NCBI GenBank assembly: GCA_039924845.1
Contig: JBDTAC010000068.1
Span: 925-64,924, forward strand
Length of the DNA stretch: 64,000 nt
Source: Bacteroidia bacterium
Lineage (GTDB): Bacteria > Bacteroidota > Bacteroidia > DATLTG01
Reading direction: 5' to 3'
Made by a program: the position numbers and the translations under genes. Below are positions 2,095-47,233 of this stretch, piece by piece (positions within the stretch are counted from its first letter, which is position 1; each line of letters begins with the position of its first letter). The notes below the pieces were generated by a model, which searched no databases, had not been told where the DNA came from, and was given only the letters and a program-made list of their open reading frames with translations.

Positions 2095-2124
2095 CAAAGA
2101 GTAAAAACCAAAAACTATTTGAAA

Positions 2125-21751: not shown

Positions 21752-21859
21752 TGCCTTTTTTGACAGAATCGAATTTAATAGTGTTTGAAAAAATATTTTT
21801 TCAAACACTATTATTGTACCAAAAAATAAATACATTTGTCGCCGAAGTGGTTTTAGATG

Positions 21860-22020: not shown

Positions 22021-22130
22021 GAATTAATTCAATGCTTTCGGGTAAAGAGCTCAGAATGGAAATCGTTTTTGCGATTACTTTTCCTTTCTCTTTTTACTCC
22101 TTTTGTTTCACTTATTTAAAAAAAATTAAA

Positions 22131-24302
22131 ATGAAAAAGGAGAAAAAAAATTATATGAACCTGTTTGTAATAGGTATTTTACTAATTGCACAACAAAGCG
22201 TTTTTGCCCAGCGAGACACATCGCTAATTGCCAAACAAAAATTAAATGAAGTAGTAGTTAGCGCCACCCGTACCGAAAAAAATGTACTTGATGTGGGGCG
22301 AAGTATTACTGTTATTTCGAGCCAAGAAATTCACAATTCCATTTACAATAGTGTGGCAGAATTACTTTCGCAACAAGAAGGCATTTACATTGTGGGAACA
22401 GGTCAAAATCCAGGTTCCAATCAAAGTATTTTTATGCGAGGAGCCGACAACAATCAAACAACGGTTATGATTGATGGAGTGCGGATAACCGATCCTTCAA
22501 CAGTAGATGACGCGATTGATTTATCTGAGCTTTCTTTGGCAAATGTGGATCACATCGAAATTGTAAGAGGTTCGCAAAGTACCTTGTATGGCTCTTCTGC
22601 CATTGGTGGAGTCATCAACATCATCACAAAAAATAATTTTTCAAAAGACTTTCATGTAGATGCTTCGGAAGACGCAGGAACATTCGGAAATCAAACCTCT
22701 ACATTTCGCGAGAATGCTTTTTTGAATTATACTTTTCAAAATGGCTTTTATGTGGAAAGCGGAATCAATAGATGGGATGTACAAGGTTTAAACTCAACGG
22801 TGGATACCGTTACCCATCCTTTGCCGTATCAACAAAATCCAGACAGAGATAATTATGTTAAAACAGAAATGACAGGAACTGTCGGATTTAAAAATGCAAA
22901 ATGGAATGTTTCTGCATCGTATAAATACCTGATTTCAGGTGCTGGAATTGATGCTGGCGCTTACACGAATGCAAATAAGGATACACTTATTTTTACGCGC
23001 AAATCCTATAATTATAATGCGAGTTATAAATTTTCGGATCATTTTAAAATCCAATTTAATGGTGGCATTTCTAATGTGCAACGCAAAGAAATACAAGACA
23101 CAACAATTGATTTTAAATACGGAACACCTGAATATTCGAATGAAATTTATAAAGGAACTTCTGCAACAAACGAGTTTCAATTGCAATATGATTTAAAAAA
23201 TATTTCGCTGATTGCTGGTGGCGGAATGTACAACGAAACCATGACGTCGAGTGGAATTTATGATTCTGATGGATTTATTTCTACGAATAATATAGATTCG
23301 CTAAATGCGCATCAAAATATTACTTACGAATATGCGCAGGCAGATATCAACGGAAAATGTATCAACGAAAAATTGAAAGATTTTAATTTGATTATCGGTG
23401 GGCGATTCAATAATCAAAATACGTACGGAAATAATCTCTCGTACGAACTAAATCCTTCTTATAAATTAAGTGAACACTCTTTGTTGTATGCAAGTTATTC
23501 CACTGGTTTTAATGCACCATCTTTGTATGAGTTATATTCGCCAATAGATGTAGCTTTAAGTTCTTCAATAAATATGGGAGATAAAAATTTGCAAGCTGAA
23601 ACATCGCAAAGTTTTGAAGTGGGTATAAAACACGATTTCGGAAATCACACTCATTTTACTGCTACATGGTTCAACACAGTAGTACAAAATTCGATTCAAT
23701 ACGTGTATTTATGGAATAGTAAAAAACCAATTGATTCACTTTCTTACTTGGATTTTATCGGCGATACGTATGTGAATGCGGGTACACAAACCAATACAGG
23801 ATTTGAATTCACGATTACTTCCGAACTCAGTAAAAAAATATTTTTTTCAGCCAATATGAGCGTTGTAAACGGAACATTGCAATACGATCCGGCTTCTATT
23901 AGTAAAGAACAAACACAGGATAATTATGTGCAATTGTTTGACGGTGGTGCTTTCCTTACACAAAAAACAAATACTTTTGGATTATTGCGCAGACCAGAAA
24001 ACAACGCTAATATAGCAATGACATACAAACCAATCGAAAAATTAATTTTACGAATGGATATTCATATGGTGGGGTCTCGTACAGATGCTGTTTACGAAGG
24101 CAATCTCGGTCCTTATGGTGCGCTTGGCACAACAGATGTAGCAGCATATACCTTGGTCGATTTTAATGCGAAATACAATTTCTGCAAATATTTTTCGGCA
24201 GGCTTCCGTATGGAAAATATTTTCAACACGCCTTACAGCGAAATCAATGGATACACTACCAGAGGCAGAGGAGAATACGTAAATTTGAGATATAATTTTT
24301 AA
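22131..24302 (+). CDS. TonB-dependent receptor, BtuB-like vitamin B12 transporter
   Basis: Start taken at MKKEKKNYMNLFVIGILLIAQQSVFAQ (signal peptide). Plug domain with TonB-box-like NEVVVSATR; beta-barrel with C-terminal NLRYNF; preceded by a B12 riboswitch. Confidence 0.85.
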   Translation: MKKEKKNYMNLFVIGILLIAQQSVFAQRDTSLIAKQKLNEVVVSATRTEKNVLDVGRSITVISSQEIHNSIYNSVAELLSQQEGIYIVGTGQNPGSNQSIFMRGADNNQTTVMIDGVRITDPSTVDDAIDLSELSLANVDHIEIVRGSQSTLYGSSAIGGVINIITKNNFSKDFHVDASEDAGTFGNQTSTFRENAFLNYTFQNGFYVESGINRWDVQGLNSTVDTVTHPLPYQQNPDRDNYVKTEMTGTVGFKNAKWNVSASYKYLISGAGIDAGAYTNANKDTLIFTRKSYNYNASYKFSDHFKIQFNGGISNVQRKEIQDTTIDFKYGTPEYSNEIYKGTSATNEFQLQYDLKNISLIAGGGMYNETMTSSGIYDSDGFISTNNIDSLNAHQNITYEYAQADINGKCINEKLKDFNLIIGGRFNNQNTYGNNLSYELNPSYKLSEHSLLYASYSTGFNAPSLYELYSPIDVALSSSINMGDKNLQAETSQSFEVGIKHDFGNHTHFTATWFNTVVQNSIQYVYLWNSKKPIDSLSYLDFIGDTYVNAGTQTNTGFEFTITSELSKKIFFSANMSVVNGTLQYDPASISKEQTQDNYVQLFDGGAFLTQKTNTFGLLRRPENNANIAMTYKPIEKLILRMDIHMVGSRTDAVYEGNLGPYGALGTTDVAAYTLVDFNAKYNFCKYFSAGFRMENIFNTPYSEINGYTTRGRGEYVNLRYNF

Positions 24303-33031: not shown

Positions 33032-33805
33032 ATGCTTTCAAAAAATCAAATTAAACAGGTTACCGGATTACAGTTCAAAAAAAACAGAGCATTGGAGCAT
33101 TGTTTCGTGGCGGAAGGAGCTAAAATCGTGCCTGAATTACTGCGTTCTAAAATAATAGTACGCGCCTTATTCGGAACTGCTGACTTCTTCGAAAAAATAT
33201 TTTTGGAGACGATTCCCGAAAGCATTGAAAAAATAATAGTGTCAGAACTTGAATTGAAAAAAATCTCTTCGCTCAGTACGCCCAATGAAGTATTGGCTGT
33301 TTGCGAAATCCCAGTTCATTCCTTGATAAATTCAGAATTAAAAAATCAACTGAGTATTGTGTTGGACGATGTGCGGGATCCTGGAAATCTGGGCACCATT
33401 GTTCGCATTGCTGATTGGTTCGGAATTGCGAACATTATTTGTTCGCCCGAAACAGTGGATGTGTACAATCCCAAAGTGATTCAAGCTACGATGGGCTCCA
33501 TTGCTCGCGTAAATGTGTGTTATATGGATTTGAAACATTTATTTTCCAATACGACTTTCGAGCATGATTTTTCAATTTACGGAGCTGTATTAAACGGAGA
33601 AAATGTTTTCGAAAAGCGATTAAATCAAACTGGTTTTATCGTGATTGGAAATGAATCCAAAGGAATTTCCGAAAAATTACTTCCTCATATTAATGAAAAG
33701 ATATCCATTCCTTCCTTTTCATTAAACCAAATGGATGCTGCGGATTCTCTCAACGCTGCTATTGCTACCGCTGTTTTGTGTGCAGAATTTAGAAGAAGAA
33801 AATAG
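33032..33805 (+). CDS. TrmH/SpoU-family RNA 2'-O-methyltransferase
   Basis: SPOUT motifs (LDDVRDPGNLGTIVRIADWFG, IGNESKGIS, LNAAIATAVL). Confidence 0.85.
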   Translation: MLSKNQIKQVTGLQFKKNRALEHCFVAEGAKIVPELLRSKIIVRALFGTADFFEKIFLETIPESIEKIIVSELELKKISSLSTPNEVLAVCEIPVHSLINSELKNQLSIVLDDVRDPGNLGTIVRIADWFGIANIICSPETVDVYNPKVIQATMGSIARVNVCYMDLKHLFSNTTFEHDFSIYGAVLNGENVFEKRLNQTGFIVIGNESKGISEKLLPHINEKISIPSFSLNQMDAADSLNAAIATAVLCAEFRRRK

Positions 33806-33902
33806 AATAATGGAGAATTGACAATGGTTAATTGATAATTAAAAGGGAGTCTCTTTCTGAAATGATTCAGCATTTGATGTTGGGTGTTTAGAACTAACAG
33901 CC

Positions 33903-34090
33903 GCATAAATGCTCGATGCGATTGCATAAATGCTCAATCGGATTGCTATATCGTTCAGTCAGATTGAGTAAATGCTCAATCAGATTGCATTATCGCTCAG
34001 TCAGATTGGTTAAATGTTCACCGAAATTGCATTATCGCTCAGTCAGATTGAGTAAATGTTCAGCGAGATTGCATAATGTCCAGCGGGGGA
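33903..34090 (+). repeat. tandem array, ~8.5 copies of a 21-bp unit (42-bp super-period)
   Basis: Units: CATAAATGCTCAATCGGATTG / CATTATCGCTCAGTCAGATTG / AGTAAATGCTCAATCAGATTG ... each ending GATTG. Confidence 0.9.
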
Positions 34091-34287
34091 CAAAAAAGCA
34101 AATCCAATTTATCTCTGCTGGAGAGGGCAGGGGGAGAAAAATAGTTTGCTTATCATTTTCGATTGAATTACATTTACCAAGCTAAATTCATGCTCGTGAA
34201 GAAAATAATTTTTCAAGCCTCATTAATTACCTTCCTTTTTCCGAGCCTTAATTTCCTTCAAGCGCAAACCAAAATAGGTTCTAAAAA

Positions 34288-35190
34288 ATGAAAAATACTT
34301 TATCCATTTCAGATAGTTTTGTTAAAACCTATACAGCAGGATTTAGGTTCGGCTTCAACGGAAAAGAAAAAGACAACGAGCTTTACGGTATTGGAAATGA
34401 CTACGATTACGGCATGAGGATGTATTATGCGAGATTAGGAAGATGGTTCAGCATAGACAACCTTTTTGCAAAGTATCCTTATCAAAGTCCATATTCTTTC
34501 GTTGGAAATTCTCCAATTTTAAAACAAGAATTTGATGGTATGGATTATGGAGTTTATACTAATCACGATACGAAAACCATTATTATAAAAGCAACTTACT
34601 ACACACAAAAAGGAGATAAAGATTCATATAACTCAGCGGTACAGGCAACCCAATATTGGAATAACCAAAGCGGAAAATTTCAATATGAGGTGGGAAGTGG
34701 CAATGATAAGGTTCGTTATAATATAAAATTTGAACTTACTGTGAAACAATCAGCTAATCCAGAATATGATGCAATAATAGAAGGAAAAGATTCTAAAGGT
34801 AATTATTTAGGTGAGAGTAATATTTATAGTGTTAAAAAAGATGATAATCCTGTTTTTGTTGATCCGAAAGTAAAAGATGAGGGAGGAGCAGGTGTAACTT
34901 ATCAAAATGGAACCCATATTGCTGTTCAAAAATCTTACGAATCAACTGATGGTGTAGGTGCCCATGAGGTCGGTCATACATTGGGAATAGATCACAAGGA
35001 GAATGGCTTAATGACCGTGAGTGTTAATGACCAAAATCATTCAAACTCGGTTGATAGATTTACGATTAAAGATATTTTTGCTAATGTAACTAAGCACGAT
35101 CCGACAAAAGGTGATGGTAATGCGACAGTACATGAAACAGGTAACAAACCCGCAAATTTTGATCAAGGCAAAGTAATTTTAAAACCATAA
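34288..35190 (+). CDS. orphan RHS C-terminal cassette: RHS core-end (DPxGL region) fused to a metzincin-like zinc-protease toxin domain
   Basis: N-terminus FRFGFNGKEKDNELYGIGNDYDYGMRMYYARLGRWFSIDNLFAKYPYQSPYSFVGNSPILKQEFDGM is an RHS repeat-associated core end. HEVGHTLGIDH matches HExxHxxGxxH. No upstream RHS repeats. Confidence 0.7.
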   Translation: MKNTLSISDSFVKTYTAGFRFGFNGKEKDNELYGIGNDYDYGMRMYYARLGRWFSIDNLFAKYPYQSPYSFVGNSPILKQEFDGMDYGVYTNHDTKTIIIKATYYTQKGDKDSYNSAVQATQYWNNQSGKFQYEVGSGNDKVRYNIKFELTVKQSANPEYDAIIEGKDSKGNYLGESNIYSVKKDDNPVFVDPKVKDEGGAGVTYQNGTHIAVQKSYESTDGVGAHEVGHTLGIDHKENGLMTVSVNDQNHSNSVDRFTIKDIFANVTKHDPTKGDGNATVHETGNKPANFDQGKVILKP

Positions 35191-35195
35191 ATGTT

Positions 35196-35621
35196 ATGAA
35201 AAATAAATTACTATTTGGAATATTTTTTTTAACATTATTGTTCTGTGGATTTGTCCAATCCAAAAAGATTGACAATGGCTATTATATTCCAGGTCGTTAT
35301 AAAATGACGAAAACAAAAAGTAAAGATAAAAATTCGGATAGCGTGTTGGTAAGTGGAAAAATTTTCACCGAAAAAGGAGAATCCGCGTTTCAGGAACCTA
35401 TAAAATTTGAAGGTAAAACATCTTGGGATAATGAGAATTTATTTTCAGATGGCTGGAATTATGCAGATAGTACAGGATTTTTTAGCGTAAAAATAAAAAA
35501 AGGAACTTTCAAAATTCGATGTACATCTACTTGGGGTAAAATAACAACAAAAAAAATAAAATTTAATCCAAAATTTGCATATTACTTCATTATTTATTTA
35601 GGAGATTCTAAGGTGTATTAA
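35196..35621 (+). CDS. putative cognate immunity protein (secreted, carboxypeptidase-regulatory-like beta-sandwich)
   Basis: 141 aa; signal peptide (LLFGIFFLTLLFCG); immediately follows toxin cassette 1. Confidence 0.45.
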   Translation: MKNKLLFGIFFLTLLFCGFVQSKKIDNGYYIPGRYKMTKTKSKDKNSDSVLVSGKIFTEKGESAFQEPIKFEGKTSWDNENLFSDGWNYADSTGFFSVKIKKGTFKIRCTSTWGKITTKKIKFNPKFAYYFIIYLGDSKVY

Positions 35622-35677
35622 GGTAGTGTTCAGAATGTCACCTGCGTTTTTCTGTTCAAAAAAATAATTTTTCAGTA

Positions 35678-37234
35678 ATGGAAAAACAAGTAAAAGCGTT
35701 TTTGGTAAAACACAATGTGTCATACGTTCATGTAAACGTGCCATACGTTCATGTAAACGTGTCATACGTTCAGATAAACGTGCCATACGTTCAGGTAAAC
35801 GTGTCATGCGTTCATGTAAACGTGCCATACGTTCATGTAAACGTGCCTAAGGTTCAGCTAAACATGCCTTATGTTCAGCTAAACATGTCGTACGTTACGG
35901 TTTATGGAAAGATAAAGGAAGTAGTCAGGACAGCAAGCAGTGCCTTACCTGATTTAGCGTTTAACTACGACCCAAGTGGAAACCGCATCAGCAAAGTAGT
36001 GAAACCACACGGCAGCAGCAAGGAAAACGGAGGTACAGACGAGCCTTTGCGTTGGACTTATACTTATTACGTTCGTGATGCACAAGGCAATGAATTGGTG
36101 GTGTATCAGCAGAAGTTAGATACCGTTGGCACCAACATTAGTTTAAGTTATAAGGAAACCGAACGCAACATTTACGGAAGTTCGCGCTTGGGTACAGAAG
36201 TGGGCGCAACCGAAATGATTGGTGCATTGCCACTCACAAATATTGATACCATTAACCATTATTTGGGAAACATACATTACGAAGCTGCTAATCATTTAGG
36301 TAATGTGTTGAGCGTTTTCACGGATAAAAAGATACCGATACAAAGCCTTACCAATCCTATGCTAATTGCCTCTTACGAGCCGGATATACTTAGCAGCACC
36401 GATTATTATCCTTTTGGCGCGCCCCTATATAGCAGGAATTTTAACAATACTGCGTTTAGGTTCGGCTTCAACGGAATGGAGAAAGATAATGACATATACG
36501 GCACCGGAAATGCTTATACAACAGAGTTTAGAATGCTTGACACACGCTTGGGTGGCAGGTGGTGGAGTTTAGACCCTGATATAAAACCTTGGGAAAGTCC
36601 TTATGCAGGATTTAGTGATAACCCTATTGTTTATAGCGATCCTTTTGGAAAGGATATCACGAATCCTGGAAAATACGTTTTAAGCAACAAAGCATTAATT
36701 CAAAAACTAAAGGCATTTGATATTGCTTTATCAGCAATTTCAGGACGTGATATACATTCATACAAAATTCCTATTACTGGAGGAGATAGATACAGAGATA
36801 AAGACGGAAAAATACGTTCTAGGTCAAATGGAGGTATTATTGGAAAATCAGCATCTCAATCTAGGCATCTTCAAGAAAATGGTGCATTAGCAGTAGATTT
36901 AGCGACAGGAGGTTGGGATTTAAAAACATTAGAAAAGGCGGCTAAAAAAGCGGGTTTAAGGATTAACCCTGATGGAGAGCCTTATACTGATGGGCATTTT
37001 CATCTTGACATGGGATTAGGAAAAAACGCAGATGAGGCAAAAAAAGTATATGATGCCTCAAATCCAGATAAAACACAAAGACCAACAGATAAGGATTTAC
37101 GCGTTAATGATAAAGAGGCAAAGTCAACAAGTTTAAATAATGATACTGGAGGCTATAAGCCCGATTCTGTCGCTCCTGCTACTCAAGATAAATTAAAATC
37201 TCCACCGCCTGCTAACGAACAAATAAAACAATAA
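35678..37234 (+). CDS. RHS-repeat protein 3' fragment: terminal YD repeats, core end, and M15/LAS-family zinc peptidase (peptidoglycan-hydrolase-like) toxin domain
   Basis: YD repeats (AFNYDPSGNRISKVV; RWTYTYYVRDAQGNELVVYQ). Core end FRFGFNGMEKDNDIYGTGNAYTTEFRMLDTRLGGRWWSLDP...DPFGKD. LAS peptidase motifs SRHLQENGALAVD (SxHxxGxAxD) and DGHFHLD (HxH). The first ~75 codons are the translated 21-bp repeat array, so the true start is probably later. Confidence 0.65.
   Translation: MEKQVKAFLVKHNVSYVHVNVPYVHVNVSYVQINVPYVQVNVSCVHVNVPYVHVNVPKVQLNMPYVQLNMSYVTVYGKIKEVVRTASSALPDLAFNYDPSGNRISKVVKPHGSSKENGGTDEPLRWTYTYYVRDAQGNELVVYQQKLDTVGTNISLSYKETERNIYGSSRLGTEVGATEMIGALPLTNIDTINHYLGNIHYEAANHLGNVLSVFTDKKIPIQSLTNPMLIASYEPDILSSTDYYPFGAPLYSRNFNNTAFRFGFNGMEKDNDIYGTGNAYTTEFRMLDTRLGGRWWSLDPDIKPWESPYAGFSDNPIVYSDPFGKDITNPGKYVLSNKALIQKLKAFDIALSAISGRDIHSYKIPITGGDRYRDKDGKIRSRSNGGIIGKSASQSRHLQENGALAVDLATGGWDLKTLEKAAKKAGLRINPDGEPYTDGHFHLDMGLGKNADEAKKVYDASNPDKTQRPTDKDLRVNDKEAKSTSLNNDTGGYKPDSVAPATQDKLKSPPPANEQIKQ
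35716..35905 (+). repeat. tandem array, ~9 copies of a 21-bp unit (42-bp super-period), related to the 33903-34090 array
   Basis: Units GTGTCATACGTTCATGTAAAC / GTGCCATACGTTCATGTAAAC alternate. The shared skeleton with array A is gYtcaNNNaaaNNtgcNNtaYc. Lies in-frame inside the 5' end of ORF 35678-37234. Confidence 0.9.
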
Positions 37235-37318: not shown

Positions 37319-37810
37319 ATGTTTACGTCTAAATTTTTAAATCAAATGAAAATGCGAATATGCGTAATTCTGTTTTCAATATATTTTATTGGGTGCAAAA
37401 CCAATAATTCGAAAACAAATAATCTTAATTGTCCAGAATTTTATCCCGAAATTGAGCATGTTTATTGGGCAGAACAAGGATTTACAATACCATCTGATAC
37501 CTTACACGATTATTGGTATAGATTGATTACTTTTTCAGAGGAAGAAGGATTTTGTACCATTATAGAAGAACTGCGACAGGGAAAAGTTGAAGGAGCTGGT
37601 AAAATGCAAGTTGTTAAGCAAATAAATATTACACATGTAAAAGGAATAGAGAATGAAAATGGCATATCGTTAGATTATGATGTGAAAAAATGGATAAGCC
37701 CCAAAGAAGTTGTATTAATATTAGAGGAACAACCTAAAACGACAAATAATTATTCTTGCAAAATTGTAAATTTAGATAACTTATCCGTAAAAGATACGAC
37801 TCTAAAATAA
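37319..37810 (+). CDS. putative lipoprotein immunity protein for the M15-peptidase toxin
   Basis: 163 aa; lipobox-like ILFSIYFIGC; periplasmic localisation would match a cell-wall-targeting toxin. Confidence 0.45.
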   Translation: MFTSKFLNQMKMRICVILFSIYFIGCKTNNSKTNNLNCPEFYPEIEHVYWAEQGFTIPSDTLHDYWYRLITFSEEEGFCTIIEELRQGKVEGAGKMQVVKQINITHVKGIENENGISLDYDVKKWISPKEVVLILEEQPKTTNNYSCKIVNLDNLSVKDTTLK

Positions 37811-37875
37811 TGTTAGTGAGTAGTGCGATAGGTAGTGTTCCAATTTGCACCTGTCCTTTTTAAAAAATCAAAAAC

Positions 37876-38146
37876 GTATTTCAAAAAATAATTTTTCAAA
37901 CCAAAAAAGCATTTCAAAAAATAATTTTTCGGAGAAGAAAAATAAAAACTTGATTGAAAAAACGTATTTGAAAAAATAATTTTTCAAATCAAAAAACGGT
38001 TTCAAAAAATAATTTTTCAAACGAAAAACACATTTCAAAAAATAATTTTTCGGAGCAGCAAAATAAAAAATTGGAATAAAAAACCAGTTTCATAAAATAA
38101 TTTTTCAAACTAAAAAAAAGTTTTCAAAAAAATAATTTTCTGAACG
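37876..38146 (+). repeat. tandem array of about eight copies of the palindromic TTTCAAAAAATAATTTTTC motif with 10-35-bp A-rich spacers
   Basis: For example GTATTTCAAAAAATAATTTTTCAAACCAAAAAAGCATTTCAAAAAATAATTTTTCGGAG... repeated. A partial duplicate lies at 46311-46395. Confidence 0.9.
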
Positions 38147-38292
38147 AGAAAAAAAATGGTTTGCAAAAAAAAGTTTTTAAAAACCATTTCAGCCGTATCA
38201 GGGATGGTGTAGCTACAAGAAGGAGCAGCAGCAATTGACAATGGAGAATTAGTAATTAATAATTGATAATTACTAATTGCAGATTATTTGCA

Positions 38293-38402
38293 AGTCGCTT
38301 TTTCCTGATAGAAATTTAAACACAAAAACAATTTGGCAAAGTGTTATTGCCAACTGGCTCAACGAGAAAAAATACCGCTCGAACAAGTTCAATTATTGGC
38401 AG
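38293..38402 (+). pseudogene. decayed copy of the 3' end of the tyrosine recombinase gene 42554-43411
   Basis: About 110 bp (CGCTTTTTCCTGATAGAAATTTAAACACAAAAACAATTTGGCAAAGTGTTATTGCCAACTGGCTCAACGAGAAAAAA...CAATTATTGGCAGG) is about 90% identical to 43212-43320 but frameshifted. Fused to the following ORF. Confidence 0.65.
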
Positions 38403-39525
38403 GACGCTTTCCAATAAACGAGAAGCGTTTACAAAAGAATATGCCAAGCGATTAGAGCAGGTACAAATAGAATGCAAGGATGCGCTAAAAGTAATTGAGC
38501 AATACGATGGCAAGGATACTTTTTTTTATCTCGACCCACCCTATTTTAATTCCGACTGCGGACATTACAAAGGCTATACAGAACAAGACTACGAAAAGCT
38601 ATTACAAGCACTTGAAAAGATACAAGGTAAATTTCTACTGAGTAGTTATCCGTCCGAACTGCTCAATACCTACGTAACAAAAAACAACTGGCGCAAACAA
38701 GAAAAAGAACAAACGATACTTCTCAGTCATCAAACAAAAAAAAAGAAAACAGAAGTGATGGTTTATAGCTACGATGCGCTGCAACAAAAAATTCATACTC
38801 GCAAGCAAAAACAAGGGCTTCGGATAAAATATAGTGCTATAAAATGCTTGCACAAACAAAAAAAAGTGTCGTGGTTCGCAAGCATGAAAAACATCTATGA
38901 TGCGCGAGGGCAAGCCTTTCAGCCGACACCCTCAGATAAAGCGGTATTTAAAAAGCTCCATGCCTCTATGAACAATGGGATACGAAGTGCCAAATCTACC
39001 ACAGCAAAAAAGTGGTTGCAAAACAAATCTTTGAGTATAGAAAAGAGCGGAGCGGTATTTAATTCAGGACAAATCCATCATCGGAAAACCAAAGAATTTA
39101 TTGAAGAACTAAAAAGCATCGGATTTTTAATAGCATCCACCGCAGCTACCAATACAGGAGAAACAGGCTATTGTTGTTTTGGAAAAAACGCGATTCTTTT
39201 TCCACTACGTAACAAAGAAAACGAAGTGCTAAACTTTTATGCTATCGGCATTACAAAAGACAAACAGGAATATTTAAACAGCTTAGGACTTTATCCGAAC
39301 TACCCACATCCACAATGCAAACGCTTGTACCTAACAGAAACTATTTTGGATGCAGCTACACTTTTAGAATCCAATGTGATGGATAACAAAGAAGCTGTTC
39401 TCGCTTTGCACAACGGAGAAATGAGTAAAGAACATATCGAAGCGATAGAAGGATTAAATGACTTGGAAGAAATTATTTTAATTGAGAAATGTGGCTCTGC
39501 CACTGATTTACAAATTAAGAATTAA
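38341..39525 (+). CDS. chimeric/hypothetical ORF: C-terminal half of a D12-class N6-adenine DNA methyltransferase (DPPY motif) lacking its AdoMet-binding N-terminus, followed by an uncharacterised (possibly toprim-like) domain
   Basis: KDALKVIEQYDGKDTFFYLDPPYFNSDCGHYKGYTEQDYEKLLQALEKIQGKFLLSSY matches Dam-family motif IV and downstream region. Motif I (FxGxG) is absent; the recombinase fragment lies directly upstream. Confidence 0.45.
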   Translation: MLLPTGSTRKNTARTSSIIGRTLSNKREAFTKEYAKRLEQVQIECKDALKVIEQYDGKDTFFYLDPPYFNSDCGHYKGYTEQDYEKLLQALEKIQGKFLLSSYPSELLNTYVTKNNWRKQEKEQTILLSHQTKKKKTEVMVYSYDALQQKIHTRKQKQGLRIKYSAIKCLHKQKKVSWFASMKNIYDARGQAFQPTPSDKAVFKKLHASMNNGIRSAKSTTAKKWLQNKSLSIEKSGAVFNSGQIHHRKTKEFIEELKSIGFLIASTAATNTGETGYCCFGKNAILFPLRNKENEVLNFYAIGITKDKQEYLNSLGLYPNYPHPQCKRLYLTETILDAATLLESNVMDNKEAVLALHNGEMSKEHIEAIEGLNDLEEIILIEKCGSATDLQIKN

Positions 39526-39569
39526 GAATGCAGGATTAAGAATTACGAATTACAAAATGAAAATATAAA

Positions 39570-41414
39570 ATGGAAAACGAACAAATAATAAAGCAGCCTA
39601 TGGCTGTGGAAAACGAACAAACAATAGAACAGCCTGCGGCTGTGGAGGAGCAGATACGAGAGATAGGTGTAAGAGCCAAAGTTCAAAGAGTAGCAATTCC
39701 TGAAAAGGAAAACTTGAATGAATTTTATCAAAAATATGCCAGCGATGGAATTGCTAAACTCATTGCCTTGCCGCCACAGTTAAGAGTAGTGAATGAATAT
39801 AAATTGGTTTTAAGCAGGACGGAAAACGATTACAATGTATTGGGCGCGTTAGGTCAAGACTTGGGCAGTATGCAAATAACCTTGATGGTAGAAGAAAAAA
39901 AACACGGCAGAAAAGAAAGAGTAAAAATAGATTTATACGAGCGGCAACACCTCCTGCAATTTGCAGCACAAATCGCAGAACTGTTTCATCAAAACACTGC
40001 AGGCATAGAAAACGATTTAATCCTGCTGACGGATTTACTCGAAACTTTTCGAGAAAAACAAACAGAACAGGCACAGCCTGTTTTTAATAATAAAAGAAAT
40101 TACGCAGCCCTATTACCCGAAACAAAAAAAAATTGCGTAGCATTTTTGTCAAACAAAAATTTGATGCAAAACATAGACAAGCTGATTGAACAATCAGGCG
40201 TGGTAGGAGAAGAAAATAGTCGCAGACTTTTATTTGTTGTTGCTTCTACTTACAAGATGAAAGAAACACTTCATGTATTGGTTCAAGGAAACAGCGGAAG
40301 CGGAAAAAGTCATTTGATAAATACGATAGGACAATGCCTGCCGCAAGAAGATGTACTCAGTATGACACGAGTAACAAGTAAATCCTTTTACCATTACAAC
40401 AAAGAAGAACTGATGGATAAAGTTATCCTACTTCAAGATTATGATTCATTAGAAGAAGAAGCTGGATATGCTTTCAGAGAATTACAAAGCGCAGGAACGA
40501 TTCATTGTTCCACCACACAAAAGGATCGCACAGGAGCGATAGTATCAACGATGAAAACAGTCAAGAGCCATTTTGCTTCTTTGATAGCTACCACCCAAGC
40601 AGAAATGCACTACGATACCATGAACCGTTCTGTTATGATAGGCATAGACGAAAGCCAAGAACAAACAAAAAAAATAATGGAGTATCAACACAAAAAATTA
40701 GCAGGACACATAGACAGCAAAGAAGAAGAAAAAGCGAAATTTTTTTTACAAAATTGTATCAGAGCATTACAGCCGATGGAAGTTGTGAATCCGTATTCAG
40801 ATAAAATACAAATTCCGCTACAAGCTAAAACTATGCGAAGGCTACATACTCAGTACCAAGTTTTCATAAAACAAATCACGCTGTTGCATCAATACCAACG
40901 CAAGAAAGACGAACAAGGTAGATTAATCACTGAGGAACAAGACATAGAAATCGCGAGCCGAATTTTCTTTGATGCTATAATGATGAAAATAGATGACTTG
41001 GATTCTTCTCTCAGACATTTTTTTGATGAACTGAAAAACTATGTTACAACTATCAATAAAGAGAAACAGGCACAGGCACAGCCTGTTCTTTTATCCGAAC
41101 CAACAAAAAGCGAAAACGCGAATCAAACCGATAAAATAAATAGTCAGCCGCACAGCGGCATAGTCTTTACGCAAAGAGAAATTAGGCTTGCATTAAACCT
41201 AAGTAAAACACAATGCTTTCGGCAAATGGAAGAACTGGAAAAATTGGAATACGTGCAGAGAATAGGCGGTTATGCCAACAGAGGTTTTCAATACAAAATA
41301 ACCTATTGGGACGATATGAAAACCGAGAAAGAAAGAATTAAAAGCGCATTCTGCGCTTTTGGTGGTTCTTGGCGTTCCAAAGAGCTTGGAACGCCACCTC
41401 TTATGCAGCACTGA
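39570..41414 (+). CDS. P-loop NTPase, putative replication/mobilisation protein of the integrative element (primase-associated helicase-like / VirE-like)
   Basis: Walker A VQGNSGSGKSHL; Walker B-like VILLQDYDSLEE; C-terminal winged-helix-like region; N-terminal direct peptide repeat ENEQ(I/T)IEQP. Confidence 0.55.
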   Translation: MENEQIIKQPMAVENEQTIEQPAAVEEQIREIGVRAKVQRVAIPEKENLNEFYQKYASDGIAKLIALPPQLRVVNEYKLVLSRTENDYNVLGALGQDLGSMQITLMVEEKKHGRKERVKIDLYERQHLLQFAAQIAELFHQNTAGIENDLILLTDLLETFREKQTEQAQPVFNNKRNYAALLPETKKNCVAFLSNKNLMQNIDKLIEQSGVVGEENSRRLLFVVASTYKMKETLHVLVQGNSGSGKSHLINTIGQCLPQEDVLSMTRVTSKSFYHYNKEELMDKVILLQDYDSLEEEAGYAFRELQSAGTIHCSTTQKDRTGAIVSTMKTVKSHFASLIATTQAEMHYDTMNRSVMIGIDESQEQTKKIMEYQHKKLAGHIDSKEEEKAKFFLQNCIRALQPMEVVNPYSDKIQIPLQAKTMRRLHTQYQVFIKQITLLHQYQRKKDEQGRLITEEQDIEIASRIFFDAIMMKIDDLDSSLRHFFDELKNYVTTINKEKQAQAQPVLLSEPTKSENANQTDKINSQPHSGIVFTQREIRLALNLSKTQCFRQMEELEKLEYVQRIGGYANRGFQYKITYWDDMKTEKERIKSAFCAFGGSWRSKELGTPPLMQH

Positions 41415-41577
41415 GAAAAGCTCTTGGCGTTCCATAATTCCAAGAGTACATAGTTTACAGCAAGAATTAAAAATTAATTGAAAATGGATAATGGAGAATT
41501 GAAAATGAAAAAACACGAAACAAAAACACCGAACAAAAATTCTGCATTCTTAATTCTGAATCCTTAATTTAATAAAA

Positions 41578-42501
41578 ATGAAAAGCCTACCACTCTACAA
41601 CAAACAATACGAACAGTATTATCAAGATTTTGCAAAAGCATTGCAAACAAAAGGCTATGCTAAATCAGAAATGTATGCAGTAAGCGCACGTGAATTTTTA
41701 TTCTTTTTGGAAAGCAAAACTATTACAGACGTAAAACAGGTTAAAGCAAGCGATGTGATAGCATATTATGAATACTTAGGAGAAAGACCAAATAAACGCA
41801 GATTAGGCGGCTTGAGCAATTCAATGATAAGAGGACAGCTTTTTGCCCTACGCCTCTTTTTTGATTATTTGACGGATGTGGGTATCATAGAAGGTTCTCC
41901 TGCACGTTTACCAAAATTCAGTATCGGTAAAAATGGAGAAAGAGAAATGCTGAGTGTAGAAGAAACAAAAGAATTGTATCAGGCAACAAAAACAAAAAGA
42001 GAAAAAGCGATTCTATCGCTGGCTTATGGATGTGGATTGCGAAGAACAGAAATACAAAATTTGAATACGTCCGATGTACAATTGAGCAAAGGACTTTTAT
42101 TAGTTAGAGATGGAAAGAATCACAGAAGCAGAACTGTTCCACTTTCGGATAGTGTACTACAATCACTTCGAGAATATTTGATTTACGAAAGAGAACAATA
42201 CATCAACAGAAGACAAAAACACATCGAATCCTCTTTTATTTTAAACAATTCAGGATTAAGAATGCAAGGAGACAACTTGTACAAAGATTTGAAAGAAATT
42301 CTAAAAAGAACAACAATAAAAAAAGAAATCTGTTTGCACTCTCTACGTCATAGCATCGCTACTCACTTGCTTGACAAAGGAGCAGATATTGAATTTGTAA
42401 AGAATTTTTTGGGGCATCAAAGTATTGATACTTCACACATTTATTCCAAGCGCAGAAAGCAACAACTAAATTTTAAAATAGCGATTCACAGAAACAGCTA
42501 A
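41578..42501 (+). CDS. tyrosine site-specific recombinase (phage integrase/XerCD family)
   Basis: N-terminal SAM-like core-binding domain; catalytic residues R (GLRRTE), HxxR (HSLRHSIATHLL) and Y (SHIYSKR). Confidence 0.85.
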   Translation: MKSLPLYNKQYEQYYQDFAKALQTKGYAKSEMYAVSAREFLFFLESKTITDVKQVKASDVIAYYEYLGERPNKRRLGGLSNSMIRGQLFALRLFFDYLTDVGIIEGSPARLPKFSIGKNGEREMLSVEETKELYQATKTKREKAILSLAYGCGLRRTEIQNLNTSDVQLSKGLLLVRDGKNHRSRTVPLSDSVLQSLREYLIYEREQYINRRQKHIESSFILNNSGLRMQGDNLYKDLKEILKRTTIKKEICLHSLRHSIATHLLDKGADIEFVKNFLGHQSIDTSHIYSKRRKQQLNFKIAIHRNS

Positions 42502-42553
42502 TTGAAAATGGAGAATTGATAATTGAAAATTACAAATTGAAAAAGCGAAACAA

Positions 42554-43411
42554 ATGAAAACACTTGAAAATTATTTACACGAACAGCACCACACGGCACA
42601 AACGATTAAGAGTTATCTCTATACGGTTTCCGTCTTCCTCAGCTCACATCCGAAAGCCGATGAATACAAACATCAAGACATACTTAACTACATGAGCGAT
42701 GTTAGAAAATTCTATCCCGATACATATACTTCCAATACAGTACTTGCAGGTATAAAAAAGTATTATGATTATTTAATTGAAATCGGAAAAAGAAATTTTC
42801 ATCCGTGTAAAACGCTGTATTTAAAAAGCAAAAGAACAAGAGATATAATTCATCAAGATTTATTTTCAAGCAAAGAATTAGAAATACTGATGGAAAGAGA
42901 AGAGCGTTATGCTGACAACAAACTCAGAAATCAAACAATTGTATCCTTGCTGATTTATCAAGGACTAAGTGTTTCAGAAATTATACACTTAAAAACAGAA
43001 CACATCAATTTAGAAAATGGAATAATTTTTATCAAAGAAAGTAAGCAGCATTCTCAAAGGCATTTAGAGATTCATCCGAAACAATTTAATTTGCTTTACC
43101 GATTAATACACGAAGTAAAAAGAGAAGCACAGGTACAAACAGTACTCACAGGAAGCACAGGAAAACCGCTAAACAACGAACATTTCAATTATTTAATCTT
43201 TACCTATAAACCGCTTTTTCCTGATAGAAATTTAAACACAAAAACGATTCGTCAAAGTGTTATTGCTAACTGGCTCAACGAGAAAAAAATACCACTCGAA
43301 CAAGTTCAATTATTGGCAGGGCATCGCTGGACTTCTTCTACCGAACGATACAAACAAAATAATCTCAACGAACAAAGAACGCTTATCAATAAATGGTTTC
43401 CGTTAAATTAA
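42554..43411 (+). CDS. tyrosine site-specific recombinase (second, divergent paralogue)
   Basis: Integrase catalytic-domain pattern (LSVSEI ... R, HxxR-like GHRWTSSTERY). Its 3' 110-180 bp is repeated at 38293 and 46541. Confidence 0.8.
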   Translation: MKTLENYLHEQHHTAQTIKSYLYTVSVFLSSHPKADEYKHQDILNYMSDVRKFYPDTYTSNTVLAGIKKYYDYLIEIGKRNFHPCKTLYLKSKRTRDIIHQDLFSSKELEILMEREERYADNKLRNQTIVSLLIYQGLSVSEIIHLKTEHINLENGIIFIKESKQHSQRHLEIHPKQFNLLYRLIHEVKREAQVQTVLTGSTGKPLNNEHFNYLIFTYKPLFPDRNLNTKTIRQSVIANWLNEKKIPLEQVQLLAGHRWTSSTERYKQNNLNEQRTLINKWFPLN

Positions 43412-43420
43412 ATTTTACTT

Positions 43421-44347
43421 TTGTACTATGAATTAATTTTATTTCAAATGAAGGAGACACATTATTTAGCAGTTGAAACATCTAATATTACTGAGGATTG
43501 GGCTGATTTTTTAAATCAAAACAGGCTTACTAAATTAAATAAACACCCACAAACGATAGAGTTTGATATGCTTAATGTAAGATTTATTAAACCACATCAC
43601 GTTGTGTCATTAGCTTGTTTGATTGAAGAATATCATTTAAAAAAAATTGAAATTAGTTTCAAAAACACAAGTTCTAAAGGAGCGAAGTATTTGGAAAAAC
43701 TTAATTTTTTTCAATATTGGGAAGAAGGATTTAACAGAAAAGACTATAGACAAACACAAATAGGAACTGCATTTTGCCTTTGGAAATTACATCCTGAAAT
43801 GATAAGCCCTTATACTTCTATGTCGACAAATTATTATCGGAATCATTTTTTTAGCGGTAAAGATTTACAGCCGTTGGATACGGCTTTGGTAGAAATATTT
43901 AACAACATTATTGACCACGCACAATCAGAAGTGAGCGGATATGTTTTCACACAATATTATCCGAACAAAAACGAAATAGTATTGTCGATGTGTGATTTTG
44001 GTAAAGGAATTCCAAACACAATCAACACGTTTTTAAAACAAGAAGGGAAAGAACCTTTGACAGATGACGAAGCTTTGGAGAAAGCCTTCGAAAAAGGATT
44101 TTCCACAAAATCTACTCCACAGAACAGAGGTTTCGGGCTTAACAATGTTATCTCAGCTGTTAAAACGCTAAAAAGTGGTTTGACAATTACTTCAAATCAC
44201 GGATTTGTGGAACAAAATAGTACTTACTTTCGTAAAAGAGCCATCGCTAATAATTTTCCAGGTACTCAGATTGTAATTAAACTGAAAACAGAGAATCTAA
44301 GACCTCTTGAAACAGAAGAGATTTCCGAACAAGAATTTTATTTGTAA
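43421..44347 (+). CDS. GHKL-superfamily (histidine-kinase-like) ATPase with uncharacterised N-terminal domain
   Basis: N box NNIIDHA; G1 box DFGKGI; G2 box GFGLNN; no HisKA/DHp domain. Confidence 0.65.
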   Translation: MYYELILFQMKETHYLAVETSNITEDWADFLNQNRLTKLNKHPQTIEFDMLNVRFIKPHHVVSLACLIEEYHLKKIEISFKNTSSKGAKYLEKLNFFQYWEEGFNRKDYRQTQIGTAFCLWKLHPEMISPYTSMSTNYYRNHFFSGKDLQPLDTALVEIFNNIIDHAQSEVSGYVFTQYYPNKNEIVLSMCDFGKGIPNTINTFLKQEGKEPLTDDEALEKAFEKGFSTKSTPQNRGFGLNNVISAVKTLKSGLTITSNHGFVEQNSTYFRKRAIANNFPGTQIVIKLKTENLRPLETEEISEQEFYL

Positions 44348-44369
44348 CTTTGCAAAATATATATGCCCC

Positions 44370-44672
44370 ATGAACACTAAGACTGTAGTAATAAACCTGA
44401 TGGATACTGTTGCTGGTACAGCTACCACAACGGAGGGACTTGCTTTATACTTAGCGATGAGTAAAGCGATGGACACAGGCAAAAATGTAAAATTATCGCT
44501 AAAAGATTGCACTCCGTTATCGTCATCATTTCTTAATTCGACTTTCGGAGAATTGTATGACAGATACGGCTATGACAAGATTAAAGAACGTGTAGTCCTT
44601 ATAAATTATTTCCCATCTCACGCGATGGCAATTAAAAAATACCTGCAAGATTTGAATAATCTTGTTAGCTGA
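44370..44672 (+). CDS. STAS-like (DUF4325-type) small protein, partner of the upstream GHKL ATPase
   Basis: About 100 aa (MNTKTVVINLMDTVAGTATTTEGLALYLAMSKAMDTGKNVKLSLKDCTPLSSSFLNSTFGELY...). ATG 23 nt after the upstream stop; the track ORF uses an upstream TTG. Confidence 0.6.
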   Translation: MNTKTVVINLMDTVAGTATTTEGLALYLAMSKAMDTGKNVKLSLKDCTPLSSSFLNSTFGELYDRYGYDKIKERVVLINYFPSHAMAIKKYLQDLNNLVS

Positions 44673-46264: not shown

Positions 46265-46540
46265 GTAGTGTTGGTAGTGTTCCAATTTGCACCTGAGCTT
46301 TTTAATTCATAAAATAATTTTTCAAACGAAAAAAAAGTTTTCAAAAAATAATTTTCTGAACGAAAAAAAAGAGTTTGCAAAAAAAAGTTTTTGAAAACCA
46401 TTTCAGCCGTATCAGGGATAGCGTAGCCAAGAGGGGAAGCAGAGCAATGGACCATTCAGCCCCACCTAAATCCTCCCCAAAGGAGAGGACTTAAAAGAAA
46501 AAAAAATTGGAAATGATTTTGCCGATTGGAATTTCAAATT

Positions 46541-46719
46541 GCTAACCGAAAACAATTCCACAAAGTGTTATTGCTAATTGGCTGAACGAGAAAAAAATAT
46601 TCTTAGAACAGGTTCAATTATTAGCAGGTCATCGCTGGACTTCTTCTACCGAACGCTACAAACAAAATAATTTAAACGAACAAAGAACGCTTATCAATAA
46701 ATGGTTTCCGTTAAATTAA
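46541..46719 (+). pseudogene. second decayed copy of the tyrosine recombinase 3' end, retaining the stop codon
   Basis: About 180 bp is about 90% identical to 43235-43411 (…SVIANWLNEKKIFLEQVQLLAGHRWTSSTERYKQNNLNEQRTLINKWFPLN*) with no upstream gene body. Confidence 0.7.
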
Positions 46720-46786: not shown

Positions 46787-47233
46787 ATGCGTGTATATAT
46801 TGACACATCGGTTATAGGAGGATATTTTGATGAAGAATTTGAAGAATGGACAATCAAGTTATTTAAGGAGTTTGAAAAGCGAACGAAAATTCCTGTGGTT
46901 TCTGATTTAACTATTCAAGAACTCGAAAATGCACCAAAGCATATTATGACATTTTTTGAATCAATAAAAACGGAACGAATTTTGTTAGATACTGAGAGCA
47001 TACAATTAGCGAGGAATTATATTAAGGAGAAAGCAATAACAGCTAAATCCTTTAACGATGCATTACATATTGCAACAGCAACAGTTAATCGTTTGGATGT
47101 TCTTGTTAGCTGGAATTTTAAGCATATTGTAAACTTGGATAGAATTAGGCTGTATAACGCTGTAAATTTAAAAAATGGTTATCCATTAATGGAGATAAGA
47201 ACTCCAAGAGAAATTTTAACTAAAAATGAATAA
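46787..47233 (+). CDS. PIN-domain protein (VapC-like ribonuclease toxin)
   Basis: MRVYIDTSVIGG with acidic residues at the conserved PIN positions (D6; E/D in the ELE region; DALHIATA). Confidence 0.75.
   Translation: MRVYIDTSVIGGYFDEEFEEWTIKLFKEFEKRTKIPVVSDLTIQELENAPKHIMTFFESIKTERILLDTESIQLARNYIKEKAITAKSFNDALHIATATVNRLDVLVSWNFKHIVNLDRIRLYNAVNLKNGYPLMEIRTPREILTKNE

What the first reader, a model, noticed from the sequence alone, without database searches (positions are those of the whole stretch)
33903..35905. Two related 21-bp tandem-repeat arrays bracket cassette 1; the second is fused in-frame to the RHS fragment
Array A (33903-34090, ~8.5 units) and array B (35716-35905, ~9 units) both have a 21-bp period with an alternating two-unit (42-bp) super-period. 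They share the skeleton gYtcaNNNaaaNNtgcNNtaYc, so they are diverged copies of one repeat family in direct orientation, 1.6 kb apart, enclosing toxin cassette 1 plus its immunity gene. Array B replaces the upstream part of the rhs fragment and is read through as a VHVNVPY heptad-repeat N-terminus. Their position suggests recombination or protein-binding sites involved in cassette exchange, or a replication-slippage hotspot. A 7-codon period also keeps any gene fusion in-frame.
Basis: seen in the sequence. Interest (0 to 1): 0.65.

Follow-up and report, generated by a model that had tools for sequence, protein, structure and literature searches.

The report
Two unrelated private 21-bp minisatellites
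Two real 21-bp tandem-repeat arrays sit in front of two orphan Rhs toxin cassettes in an uncultured Bacteroidia genome, but they are unrelated in sequence, occur nowhere else in public data and show no sign of selection, so they are most likely ordinary slippage-generated minisatellites rather than recombination sites.

Summary
Both arrays exist. Array A is 33903-34076, 21 bp x 8.3, with a true 42-bp higher-order period. Array B is 35717-35896, 21 bp x 8.6, with no 42-bp period. They flank rhs-CT cassette 1 and its putative immunity gene. B lies inside an ORF (35678-37234) whose RHS homology starts within two codons of the array's end.

The claim that A and B are diverged copies of one family fails: their similarity is no better than column-shuffled controls (p 0.52 ungapped, 0.31 gapped).

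Neither unit occurs as an array in 185,579 species genomes, the JGI metagenome contigs or IMG/VR. Homologous recombinase/orphan-rhs islands in other Bacteroidota have no such arrays. None of 119 RHS homologues has a heptad N-terminus. Differences between units are neutral in every reading frame. Self-complementarity is not exceptional. The unit motifs do not recur at other island junctions.

Best reading: two independent, lineage-private minisatellites produced by slippage or unequal crossover in dispensable junction DNA of a mosaic, rAID-like toxin/immunity island. B's in-frame reading is most likely a by-product of a period divisible by three.

A protein-binding or translated-linker role is not excluded. 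Three arrays within 4.3 kb is unusual. No strain-level comparison is possible. Interest is low.

The parts
33903..34076 (+). Array A: 21-bp tandem repeat, 8.3 copies, organised as about 4 copies of a 42-bp dimer (GCATTATCGCTCAGTCAGATT + GAGTAAATGCTCAATCAGATT). A degenerate partial unit runs to about 34090.
   Evidence: TRF; units in register; lag identities. Open in only one of six frames (ORF 33916-34185). GC 38.5% against 28% mean intergenic.
35717..35896 (+). Array B: 21-bp tandem repeat, 8.6 copies, consensus GTAAACGTGCCATACGTTCAG. The 3' units are more diverged. There is no 42-bp super-period.
   Evidence: TRF. Four of six frames are open by inspection of the unit. GC 42%.
34288..35190 (+). 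Cassette 1: short rhs C-terminal fragment (end of the Rhs core) plus an HExxH metallopeptidase-like toxin domain.
   Evidence: TIGR03696 33.3 bits against cut-off 32.5; weak Metallopep and M10 hits below Pfam's cut-offs. Its 5' end is shared with cassettes at 44713 and 47450.
35196..35621 (+). Putative immunity gene of cassette 1 (141 aa, signal-peptide-like N-terminus, no family hit).
   Evidence: Function is inferred from position only.
35678..37234 (+). Cassette 2 ORF: ATG, 13 codons, array B (heptads), about 250 aa of RHS shell/core, then a C-terminal toxin domain of unknown family.
   Evidence: 2100 RHS homologues, which cover residues 74 to about 330 only. Profile alignment starts at residue 72. 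TIGR03696 23.6 bits, below cut-off.
37319..37810 (+). Putative immunity gene of cassette 2.
   Evidence: Function is inferred from position.
35622..35644 (+). Conserved post-cassette motif GGTAGTGTTC-N4-T-N2-CACCTG, also at 37831 and 46273. This is the real shared junction element of the island, and it is not part of either array.
   Evidence: (family D11) and 66: 3 matches, 0 expected.
33032..33805 (+). SpoU/TrmH RNA methyltransferase, the last core gene. The island starts just after it, so array A lies about 100 bp inside the island's left edge.
   Evidence: Relatives keep Omp85-SpoU followed by RsmE and PEPCK genes, with no island.

Best explanation
A and B are two independent, lineage-private minisatellites, not copies of one element.

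Proposed mechanism: each arose by duplication of a 21-bp segment and was then expanded and partly homogenised by replication slippage or unequal crossing-over. This happened in dispensable junction DNA of a mosaic island of orphan rhs toxin/immunity cassettes. A passed through a stage in which a diverged 42-bp dimer was amplified.

B sits at the 5' truncation point of an orphan rhs fragment. Because its period is divisible by three and its unit lacks stops in that frame, the gene caller reads it through as a VHVNVPY heptad N-terminus. This is most likely a by-product, not a selected protein domain.

Neither array is needed for cassette exchange. By analogy with characterised orphan rhs loci, exchange would use the roughly 750 bp of RHS-core homology downstream of B.

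Shown: existence, boundaries, lack of A-B relatedness, absence elsewhere, and neutral substitution pattern. Inferred: the slippage or unequal-crossover origin and the lack of function.
For: - A-B similarity equals that of column-shuffled arrays.
- The unit patterns are not found as arrays in genome contigs (19 single-copy hits; my estimate of chance expectation is about 34), metagenome contigs (0 for A; 42 single-copy hits for B) or viral contigs.
- Related islands with the same two-recombinase module and orphan rhs cassettes have no array of at least 4 copies with period at least 12.
- None of 119 RHS homologues has a periodic N-terminus, and their homology stops at the array edge.
- Unit-to-unit substitutions are 20% synonymous against 24% expected in B's ORF frame, and similar in all frames of A and B.
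- Folding energy is within the range of column-shuffled arrays; 12-30% of them fold as well.
- Matches to the two inverted-repeat-containing sub-patterns of the units outside the arrays are at chance level, and none lies at an island junction or near the recombinase genes.
- The higher-order 42-bp structure in A and the more diverged edge units in B are typical of satellite evolution.
Against: - Three tandem arrays (A, B and the 33-bp AT-rich array at 37865-38156) lie within 4.3 kb. By contrast, 564 kb of other fetched loci hold only two arrays of comparable size, one of them the same species' 33-bp array. Something local favours arrays.
- A and B share the same 21-bp period (two helical turns, seven codons) and nearly the same length (about 175-180 bp). 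This is a coincidence under this model.
- Both are GC-richer (38-42%) than this genome's intergenic DNA (28%).
- Both units contain short inverted repeats: AACGT-N5-ACGTT in B and CAATC-N-GATTG in A.
- An ATG at 35678 lies 5 nt after a copy of a genome-wide over-represented motif and opens the frame through B.
- Copy-number polymorphism, the hallmark of slippage, could not be tested.
Confidence: 0.55

Rival explanations
1. The arrays are phased protein-binding platforms. The sites repeat every two helical turns, as in iterons, arm-type sites or centromere-like arrays. They would be bound by one of the island's proteins (tyrosine recombinases 41578-43411, the primase-like and P-loop proteins 38341-41414) or by a host factor, and would mark cassette boundaries.
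For: - The 21-bp period equals 2 x 10.5 bp.
- There are 8-9 copies, as in plasmid iteron arrays (my knowledge of R6K and F).
- Each unit holds a short dyad (read from the sequence).
- Each array lies directly upstream of a cassette, and A lies at the left edge of the island.
- Arrays are locally clustered.
Against: - A and B share no motif above chance, so two different binders would be needed.
- The dyad content is not exceptional for random 21-bp arrays.
- The motifs are absent from other junctions and from the 108-bp repeats flanking the recombinase module.
- Homologous elements carry no arrays.
- No replication initiator or ParB-like gene was detected in this island.
Confidence: 0.12
2. 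Array B is a translated, functional N-terminal heptad-repeat extension. It would give the orphan rhs fragment its own start codon and a beta-strand-rich linker, so that cassette 2 is expressed as a stand-alone mini-Rhs toxin. The 7-codon period would allow length variation without frameshift.
For: - A continuous ORF runs from ATG 35678 through B into the RHS part.
- The ATG is preceded by a copy of the motif AAAATAATTTTT, which also lies 5-40 nt before several other gene starts.
- Real proteins with almost the same heptad exist: VHVNVPA in BlaR1/M56-family proteins P0482 and P0480.
Against: - No RHS homologue has such an N-terminus.
- There is no excess of synonymous changes between units.
- Four of six frames of the unit are open, so read-through is expected by chance.
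- The motif is not significantly associated with starts: 9 of 44 occurrences against 6.5 for random positions.
- phmmer hits are heterogeneous low-complexity ORFs, including eukaryotic ones.
- A 518-aa fragment lacks any recognisable delivery domain.
- This reading says nothing about array A.
Confidence: 0.12
3. The arrays act as RNA. They would be repeat RNAs transcribed upstream of toxin genes, comparable to type III antitoxin arrays such as ToxI.
For: - The tandem repeats lie directly upstream of, and on the same strand as, toxin ORFs.
- A's effective unit of 42 nt x 4 is within the size range of type III antitoxin repeats (my knowledge).
- B folds better than dinucleotide shuffles (z -2.6 and -3.7).
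Against: - There is no Rfam match, even at E <= 1, apart from a meaningless miRNA hit.
- The toxins are Rhs-CT domains with putative immunity genes adjacent (assigned by position only), not ToxN-like RNases.
- Folding is not better than for column-shuffled arrays.
Confidence: 0.03
4. The arrays, or their copy numbers, are assembly artefacts of the metagenome-assembled genome.
For: - The window comes from a MAG contig.
- k-mer unitigs from two runs break inside both arrays.
- The two arrays have suspiciously similar lengths of about 175-180 bp.
Against: - The unitigs reproduce the first 2.5 units of A, and the first 2 and last 4 units of B, at 100% identity.
- Units are diverged enough (A 64-79%, B about 85%) to be assembled uniquely with long k-mers or read pairs (my inference).
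Confidence: 0.05

Closest known systems
Bacterial minisatellites / VNTR loci (tandem repeats of 10-100 bp generated by slipped-strand mispairing and unequal recombination)
   Same: Head-to-tail copies. Period of 21 bp. Higher-order (42-bp) structure in A. Degenerate edge units in B. Location in non-essential DNA. Private to one lineage.
   Different: Copy-number polymorphism, the defining behaviour, could not be observed here. Two arrays with the same period and length lying 1.6 kb apart is unusual.
Orphan rhs-CT/rhsI cassettes downstream of rhs genes (Poole 2011, PMC3150448; Koskiniemi 2014, PMC3967940)
   Same: 5'-truncated rhs fragments keep part of the conserved core, followed by a variable toxin domain and a small putative immunity gene. 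In those systems exchange is by homologous recombination within the shared core.
   Different: No tandem arrays are described at the 5' ends of orphans there ('tandem repeat' has 0 occurrences in both papers). No main rhs gene lies in this window. The cassettes lie in a recombinase-associated island.
Recombinase-associated acquired interbacterial defence clusters, rAID-1 (Ross et al., bioRxiv 10.1101/471110)
   Same: [quoted passage not shown] This island has a conserved post-cassette motif at three junctions.
   Different: The rAID repeats are dispersed conserved intergenic motifs, not tandem arrays. Here there are two recombinases plus a PF27228-type protein. Cassettes 1-2 and both arrays lie upstream of the recombinase module. 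Recombinase identity to the B. fragilis reference was not tested.
Plasmid iterons (e.g. R6K gamma origin, seven 22-bp repeats; my knowledge)
   Same: Direct repeats of about 21-22 bp. Between 7 and 9 contiguous copies. Spacing in phase with the helix.
   Different: No adjacent initiator gene, no AT-rich/DnaA-box context, two unrelated unit sequences, and no counterpart in homologous elements.

Membership tests
Minisatellite / VNTR | Head-to-tail direct copies of a 10-100 bp unit, statistically above chance | tested here: met
   TRF scores are 129 (period 21) and 187 (period 42) for A, and 220 for B. The consensus matches only inside the arrays; shuffles give 0.
Minisatellite / VNTR | Copy number varies between strains or within populations | not testable with these tools
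   Only 100%-identical unitigs that break inside the arrays are available. The nearest SpoU-methylase homologue found is 59% identical.
One repeat family (A and B homologous) | Unit consensus similarity above shuffled controls | tested here: not met
   p = 0.52 ungapped over all rotations and both strands. p = 0.31 gapped local.
Integron attC-like / rAID intergenic recombination sites | The same site recurs at each cassette boundary | tested here: not met
   Array motifs are confined to the arrays. A different motif, GGTAGTGTTC..CACCTG, is what recurs at three boundaries.
Integron attC-like / rAID intergenic recombination sites | Conserved in related recombinase-associated islands | tested here: not met
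   No comparable arrays in L005-L011 or L076-L079.
Integron attC-like / rAID intergenic recombination sites | Exceptional single-strand hairpin potential | tested here: not met
   Minimum free energy is within the distribution of column-shuffled arrays; 12-30% of them fold as well.
Plasmid/element iterons | Array adjacent to its initiator (rep) gene and origin features | tested here: not met
   The neighbours are the SpoU gene and rhs cassettes. The primase-like ORF starts 4.3 kb from A and 2.4 kb from B.
Plasmid/element iterons | Specific binding by an initiator protein | not testable with these tools
   Needs EMSA or footprinting.
Type III toxin-antitoxin RNA repeats (ToxI-like) | Repeat array upstream of a ToxN/AbiQ-type endoribonuclease, and a match to known antitoxin RNA families | tested here: not met
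   No Rfam hit. The downstream ORFs are Rhs-CT proteins.
Coding heptad-repeat domain | Repeat conserved in homologous proteins | tested here: not met
   0 of 119 RHS homologues have a periodic N-terminus. phmmer hits are heterogeneous low-complexity ORFs. No Pfam hit.
Coding heptad-repeat domain | Purifying selection (excess of synonymous differences between units) | tested here: not met
   4 synonymous against 16 non-synonymous changes in the ORF frame. The expected synonymous fraction is 0.24 and the observed is 0.20. Counts are small.
Orphan rhs-CT cassette (context of the arrays) | Rhs-associated core (TIGR03696) followed by a variable C-terminus, 5'-truncated relative to full-length Rhs | tested here: met
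   Cassette 1 scores 33.3 bits (cut-off 32.5). Cassette 2 scores 23.6 bits, below the cut-off, but has 2100 RHS homologues with E-values down to 4e-65 covering residues 74 to about 330.
rAID-1 cluster | 5' XerD-like recombinase at least 44% identical to BF9343_RS08045, with at least 2 co-directional downstream genes of low GC | not tested
   Criteria were read. The recombinases are XerD-like by profile. Cassettes 3-4 lie downstream of them; cassettes 1-2 and the arrays lie upstream.

The most novel reading that the evidence does not exclude
The arrays are functional boundary elements of a new kind. They would be helically phased 21-bp arrays placed in front of orphan toxin cassettes. They would either recruit a DNA-binding protein that controls cassette expression or exchange, or, for B, act as a slippage-prone in-frame adaptor that lets a truncated Rhs toxin fragment be translated on its own with a variable-length heptad linker. 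The shared period and length of two unrelated sequences would then reflect a structural constraint rather than coincidence.
Probability: 0.1. Interest if true: 0.55.

Novelty: new member of a known kind. Interest (0 to 1): 0.2.

Why it matters
As found, it matters little. It removes a tempting but unsupported idea, namely that paired repeat arrays bracket an exchangeable toxin cassette.

It also shows that annotated N-terminal 'heptad repeats' on an Rhs fragment can simply be a read-through minisatellite. That is a caution for annotating MAGs.

The arrays also break short-read assemblies exactly at cassette boundaries. This can hide the organisation of such islands.

If the arrays proved to be bound or translated, they would be a new accessory feature of polymorphic-toxin islands in Bacteroidota.

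Tried and rejected
1. A-B homology. I tested all rotations and both strands on position-frequency matrices, and gapped local alignment against column-shuffled arrays. Both were non-significant.

2. Array A followed by a degenerate rhs fragment. I thought I saw 'TKKQIQF..GRGRKIV' resembling 'SKKNLKFEYDALGRRIVK'. A profile of 109 homologues gives E > 1 in a six-sequence search, so I rejected this.

3. Unit of B derived from the rhs codons that normally precede TVYGK (consensus q-e-e-i-a-s-i-e-w). Per-heptad profile scores are negative and no better than permuted peptides, p 0.19-0.41. This is unsupported but not excluded.

4. Hairpin, cruciform or attC-like structure. The z-scores against dinucleotide shuffles looked good for B, but they vanish against the proper null of column-shuffled arrays.

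5. Exact-pattern scans of genomes, metagenomes and viral contigs gave only single chance hits.

6. Strain comparison through exact-protein look-ups returned only identical unitigs that break in the arrays.

7. Relatives via the SpoU gene. The nearest homologue found is 59% identical, so it is useless for non-coding comparison. It did show that the island is an insertion.

8. phmmer of the array-B peptide against 1.84 billion proteins returned low-complexity and heptad ORFs from unrelated organisms, including eukaryotes.

9. AAAATAATTTTT as a gene-start signal supporting ATG 35678. The association with starts is not significant.

10. Rfam search, at gathering thresholds and at E <= 1, found nothing relevant.
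Full report
**Observation**

Tandem Repeats Finder reports two strong arrays with a 21-bp period.
- Array A is at 33903-34076: 8.3 copies, 67% matches. It is also scored as 3.7 copies of a 42-bp unit at 84%.
- Array B is at 35717-35896: 8.6 copies, 86% matches.

Written in register, the units are plain to see. The consensus 21-mers match nowhere else in the 64-kb window with up to 3 mismatches, and shuffles give essentially no matches.

Lag analysis shows that A has a true higher-order period: identity is 0.64 at lag 21 and 0.79 at lag 42. B does not: 0.85 at lag 21 and 0.82 at lag 42.

**Are A and B related?**

I compared position-frequency matrices over all 21 rotations and both strands. The best score was 8.6, against 8.7 +/- 0.7 for column-permuted versions of B, giving p = 0.52. 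A gapped local alignment of the arrays scored 18, against 16.6 +/- 3.6 for column-shuffled arrays, giving p = 0.31. The arrays share a period and a length, but not a sequence.

**Context**

The window is a contig of an uncultured 'Bacteroidia bacterium' MAG.
- *Left of the arrays.* An Omp85 gene and a SpoU/TrmH methyltransferase gene end at 33805. In the nearest homologues found (57-58% protein identity for the two loci examined; best hit 59%), SpoU is followed by RsmE and PEPCK genes. The 15 kb from 33.8 to 48.9 kb is therefore an inserted island, and array A lies about 100 bp inside its left edge.
- *Four rhs C-terminal cassettes.* They start at 34288, 35678, 44713 and 47450. Three match the Rhs-associated core, TIGR03696: 34288 and 44713 above the curated cut-off, 35678 below it. 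The cassette at 47450 has no family hit and is assigned from the 5' region it shares with the others. Cassettes 1-3 are each followed by a small ORF, at 35196, 37319 and 45701, which I take to be immunity genes from position only.
- *A 4.9-kb module.* It has a methyltransferase-fragment/primase-like ORF, a P-loop ORF and two XerD-like tyrosine recombinases (38341-43411). Direct repeats of 108 bp at 95-97% identity flank it.
- *The same module elsewhere.* A PF27228-type protein, two recombinases and variable cargo that includes orphan rhs fragments occur in other Bacteroidota.
- *Resemblance to rAID-1.* The whole arrangement resembles the recombinase-associated AID clusters, rAID-1, described with 'repetitive intergenic sequences reminiscent of integrons' (bioRxiv 10.1101/471110).
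- *The recurring junction element.* What recurs at cassette junctions here is GGTAGTGTTC-N4-T-N2-CACCTG, at 35622, 37831 and 46273. It is not either array.

**Array B and the rhs fragment**

ORF 35678-37234 starts with an ATG, reads 13 codons, passes through B as (V/Y)(H/Q)VNV(P/S)Y heptads and continues into RHS sequence.

Homologues cover only residues 74 to about 330.

Orphan fragments from unrelated Bacteroidota begin within about 0-25 codons of the same W-TVxGK position. This is a common breakpoint region. None of those loci has an array there.

**Is the heptad peptide a protein feature?**
- None of 119 homologues shows any internal periodicity.
- Pfam finds nothing in it.
- An exhaustive phmmer search returns heterogeneous heptad or low-complexity ORFs, including a haptophyte and a sea-anemone sequence. 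It also returns two BlaR1/M56-family proteins that happen to carry VHVNVPA heptads. I regard that as a curiosity, not as homology.
- Among the eight full units, differences from the consensus are 4 synonymous and 16 non-synonymous in the ORF frame. The expected synonymous fraction is 0.24 and the observed is 0.20. No frame of A or B shows the synonymous excess expected of a constrained coding repeat.
- By inspection, four of the six frames of the B unit lack stops, so read-through is not surprising. A is open in one frame only.

**Is either array a structured or bound site?**
- Both units contain short dyads: AACGT-N5-ACGTT in B and CAATC-N-GATTG in A.
- B folds better than dinucleotide shuffles, with z of -2.6 and -3.7. 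Against the appropriate null of tandem arrays of column-shuffled units, 12-30% of controls fold as well.
- Outside the arrays, the dyad motifs occur at chance frequency. They are absent from the other junctions and from the repeats flanking the recombinase module.
- Rfam gives nothing.

**Distribution**
- Exact degenerate patterns for the units give only single, chance-level matches in one genome per 185,579 species and in the metagenome contigs. IMG/VR gives none.
- The only other data for this organism are k-mer unitigs from two sequencing runs. They are 100% identical to the window and stop inside the arrays. They confirm the array edges but give no independent copy number and no strain variation.
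- In 564 kb of other fetched loci, only two arrays of at least 4 copies with period at least 12 were found. One of them is this same species' AT-rich repeat.
- A, B and the 33-bp array at 37865-38156, all within 4.3 kb, are therefore a genuine local cluster.

**Interpretation**

The evidence fits two independent, lineage-private minisatellites. They would have formed and expanded by slippage or unequal crossover in dispensable, recombination-scarred junction DNA of a toxin/immunity island.
- A's 42-bp higher-order structure and B's diverged edge units are the usual marks of such evolution.
- Cassette exchange in characterised orphan rhs loci goes through homology inside the rhs core: 522 bp at 95% identity in Salmonella (PMC3967940). 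That corresponds here to the RHS segment downstream of B, so neither array is required.

Several points remain unexplained:
- the identical period and near-identical length of two unrelated arrays;
- their coding-like GC content (38-42% against 28% intergenic);
- the local clustering.

These leave modest room for a binding-platform role or a translated-linker role. I rate each at about 0.1.

**Verdict**

The 'slippage hotspot' option is the best supported. This is a new instance of a known kind of sequence, and its interest is low.

Noticed in passing
window, whole (e.g. 30070, 34202, 35661, 37885-38140, 46311-46356, 48901, 55037): The 12-mer AAAATAATTTTY occurs 44 times against 1.4 expected. 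35 of the 44 are on the + strand. Most are intergenic, in the core genome as well as the island. It is not significantly tied to start codons, so it may be a genome-wide regulatory or REP-like motif.
   Followed up: partly
window 35622-35644, 37831-37853, 46273-46295: The conserved motif GGTAGTGTTC-N4-T-N2-CACCTG lies directly after three putative immunity genes (0 expected by chance). It is a better candidate than the arrays for a cassette-boundary or recombination site.
   Followed up: partly
window 37865-38156 and 46306-46395, then 38148-38228 / 46362-46442: AT-rich 33/34-bp tandem repeats (19% GC) carry the AAAATAATTTTT motif and follow cassettes 2 and 3. Each is followed by an 80-bp block conserved at 86%. 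This is a shared inter-cassette spacer module.
   Followed up: partly
window 38296-38403, 43212-43320, 46520-46628: 108-bp direct repeats (95-97% identical; a third copy at 70-81%) correspond to the 3' end of the second recombinase gene. The first two flank a 4.9-kb module of methyltransferase-fragment/primase-like ORF, P-loop ORF and two tyrosine recombinases. This looks like att-type duplication or tandem accretion of a small mobile module.
   Followed up: partly
L005-L007 (about 1-2800), L076 (807-2571), L077 and L078 (about 7400-11800), L079 (about 1-3200): A conserved module occurs in diverse Bacteroidota: a PF27228-type protein of 593-646 aa (called as a truncated or unscanned ORF in L076 and L079) plus two adjacent tyrosine recombinases, followed by variable cargo (orphan rhs cassettes, IS1, GmrSD, methyltransferases). 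It is an rAID-like platform with two recombinases.
   Followed up: partly
window 17750-17781, 33802-33840, 38233-38279, 39513-39552, 41476-41569, 42500-42543: Runs of 4-6 AATTNNN heptamers (AATTAAG, AATGGAA, AATTCTG, AATTGAA) lie in intergenic spacers, especially before each gene of the recombinase module. One lies just upstream of array A.
   Followed up: no
window 34288, 44713, 47450 and upstream: Cassettes 1, 3 and 4 share an ATG and the N-terminus MKNTxSISxSFVxTYTG, fused to the last ~70 aa of the Rhs core. Cassettes 3 and 4 are preceded by a hairpin plus T-run (TCCATTC..GAATGGA TTTTTT).
   Followed up: partly
window 34196-34291: There is a remnant of a Bacteroidota-type signal peptide (VKKIIFQASLITFLFPSLNFLQAQ) between array A and cassette 1. 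It suggests a truncated secreted-protein gene start.
   Followed up: no
L005 5960-6010; L010 1500-1580; proteins P0007, P0030, P0033, P0050, P0052: Orphan rhs fragments from unrelated Bacteroidota start within about 0-25 codons upstream of the same conserved W-TVxGK(I/V) position. This points to a recurrent 5' breakpoint about 250 aa before the end of the core.
   Followed up: partly
window 43421-44672 and 46787-47233: The island's cargo includes a GHKL/HATPase_c protein with a weak DrmA-like hit, followed by a DUF4325 (STAS-like) protein. It also includes a PIN-domain protein. These are possibly defence or toxin-antitoxin genes.
   Followed up: no
window 21831-22031: A cobalamin riboswitch (107.6 bits) lies directly upstream of ORF 22032-24302.
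   Followed up: no
proteins P0482, P0480: Two BlaR1/M56-peptidase-family proteins carry long runs of VHVNVPA/QHIDVPA heptads, nearly the same peptide as the read-through of array B. I take this as convergence, not homology.
   Followed up: partly
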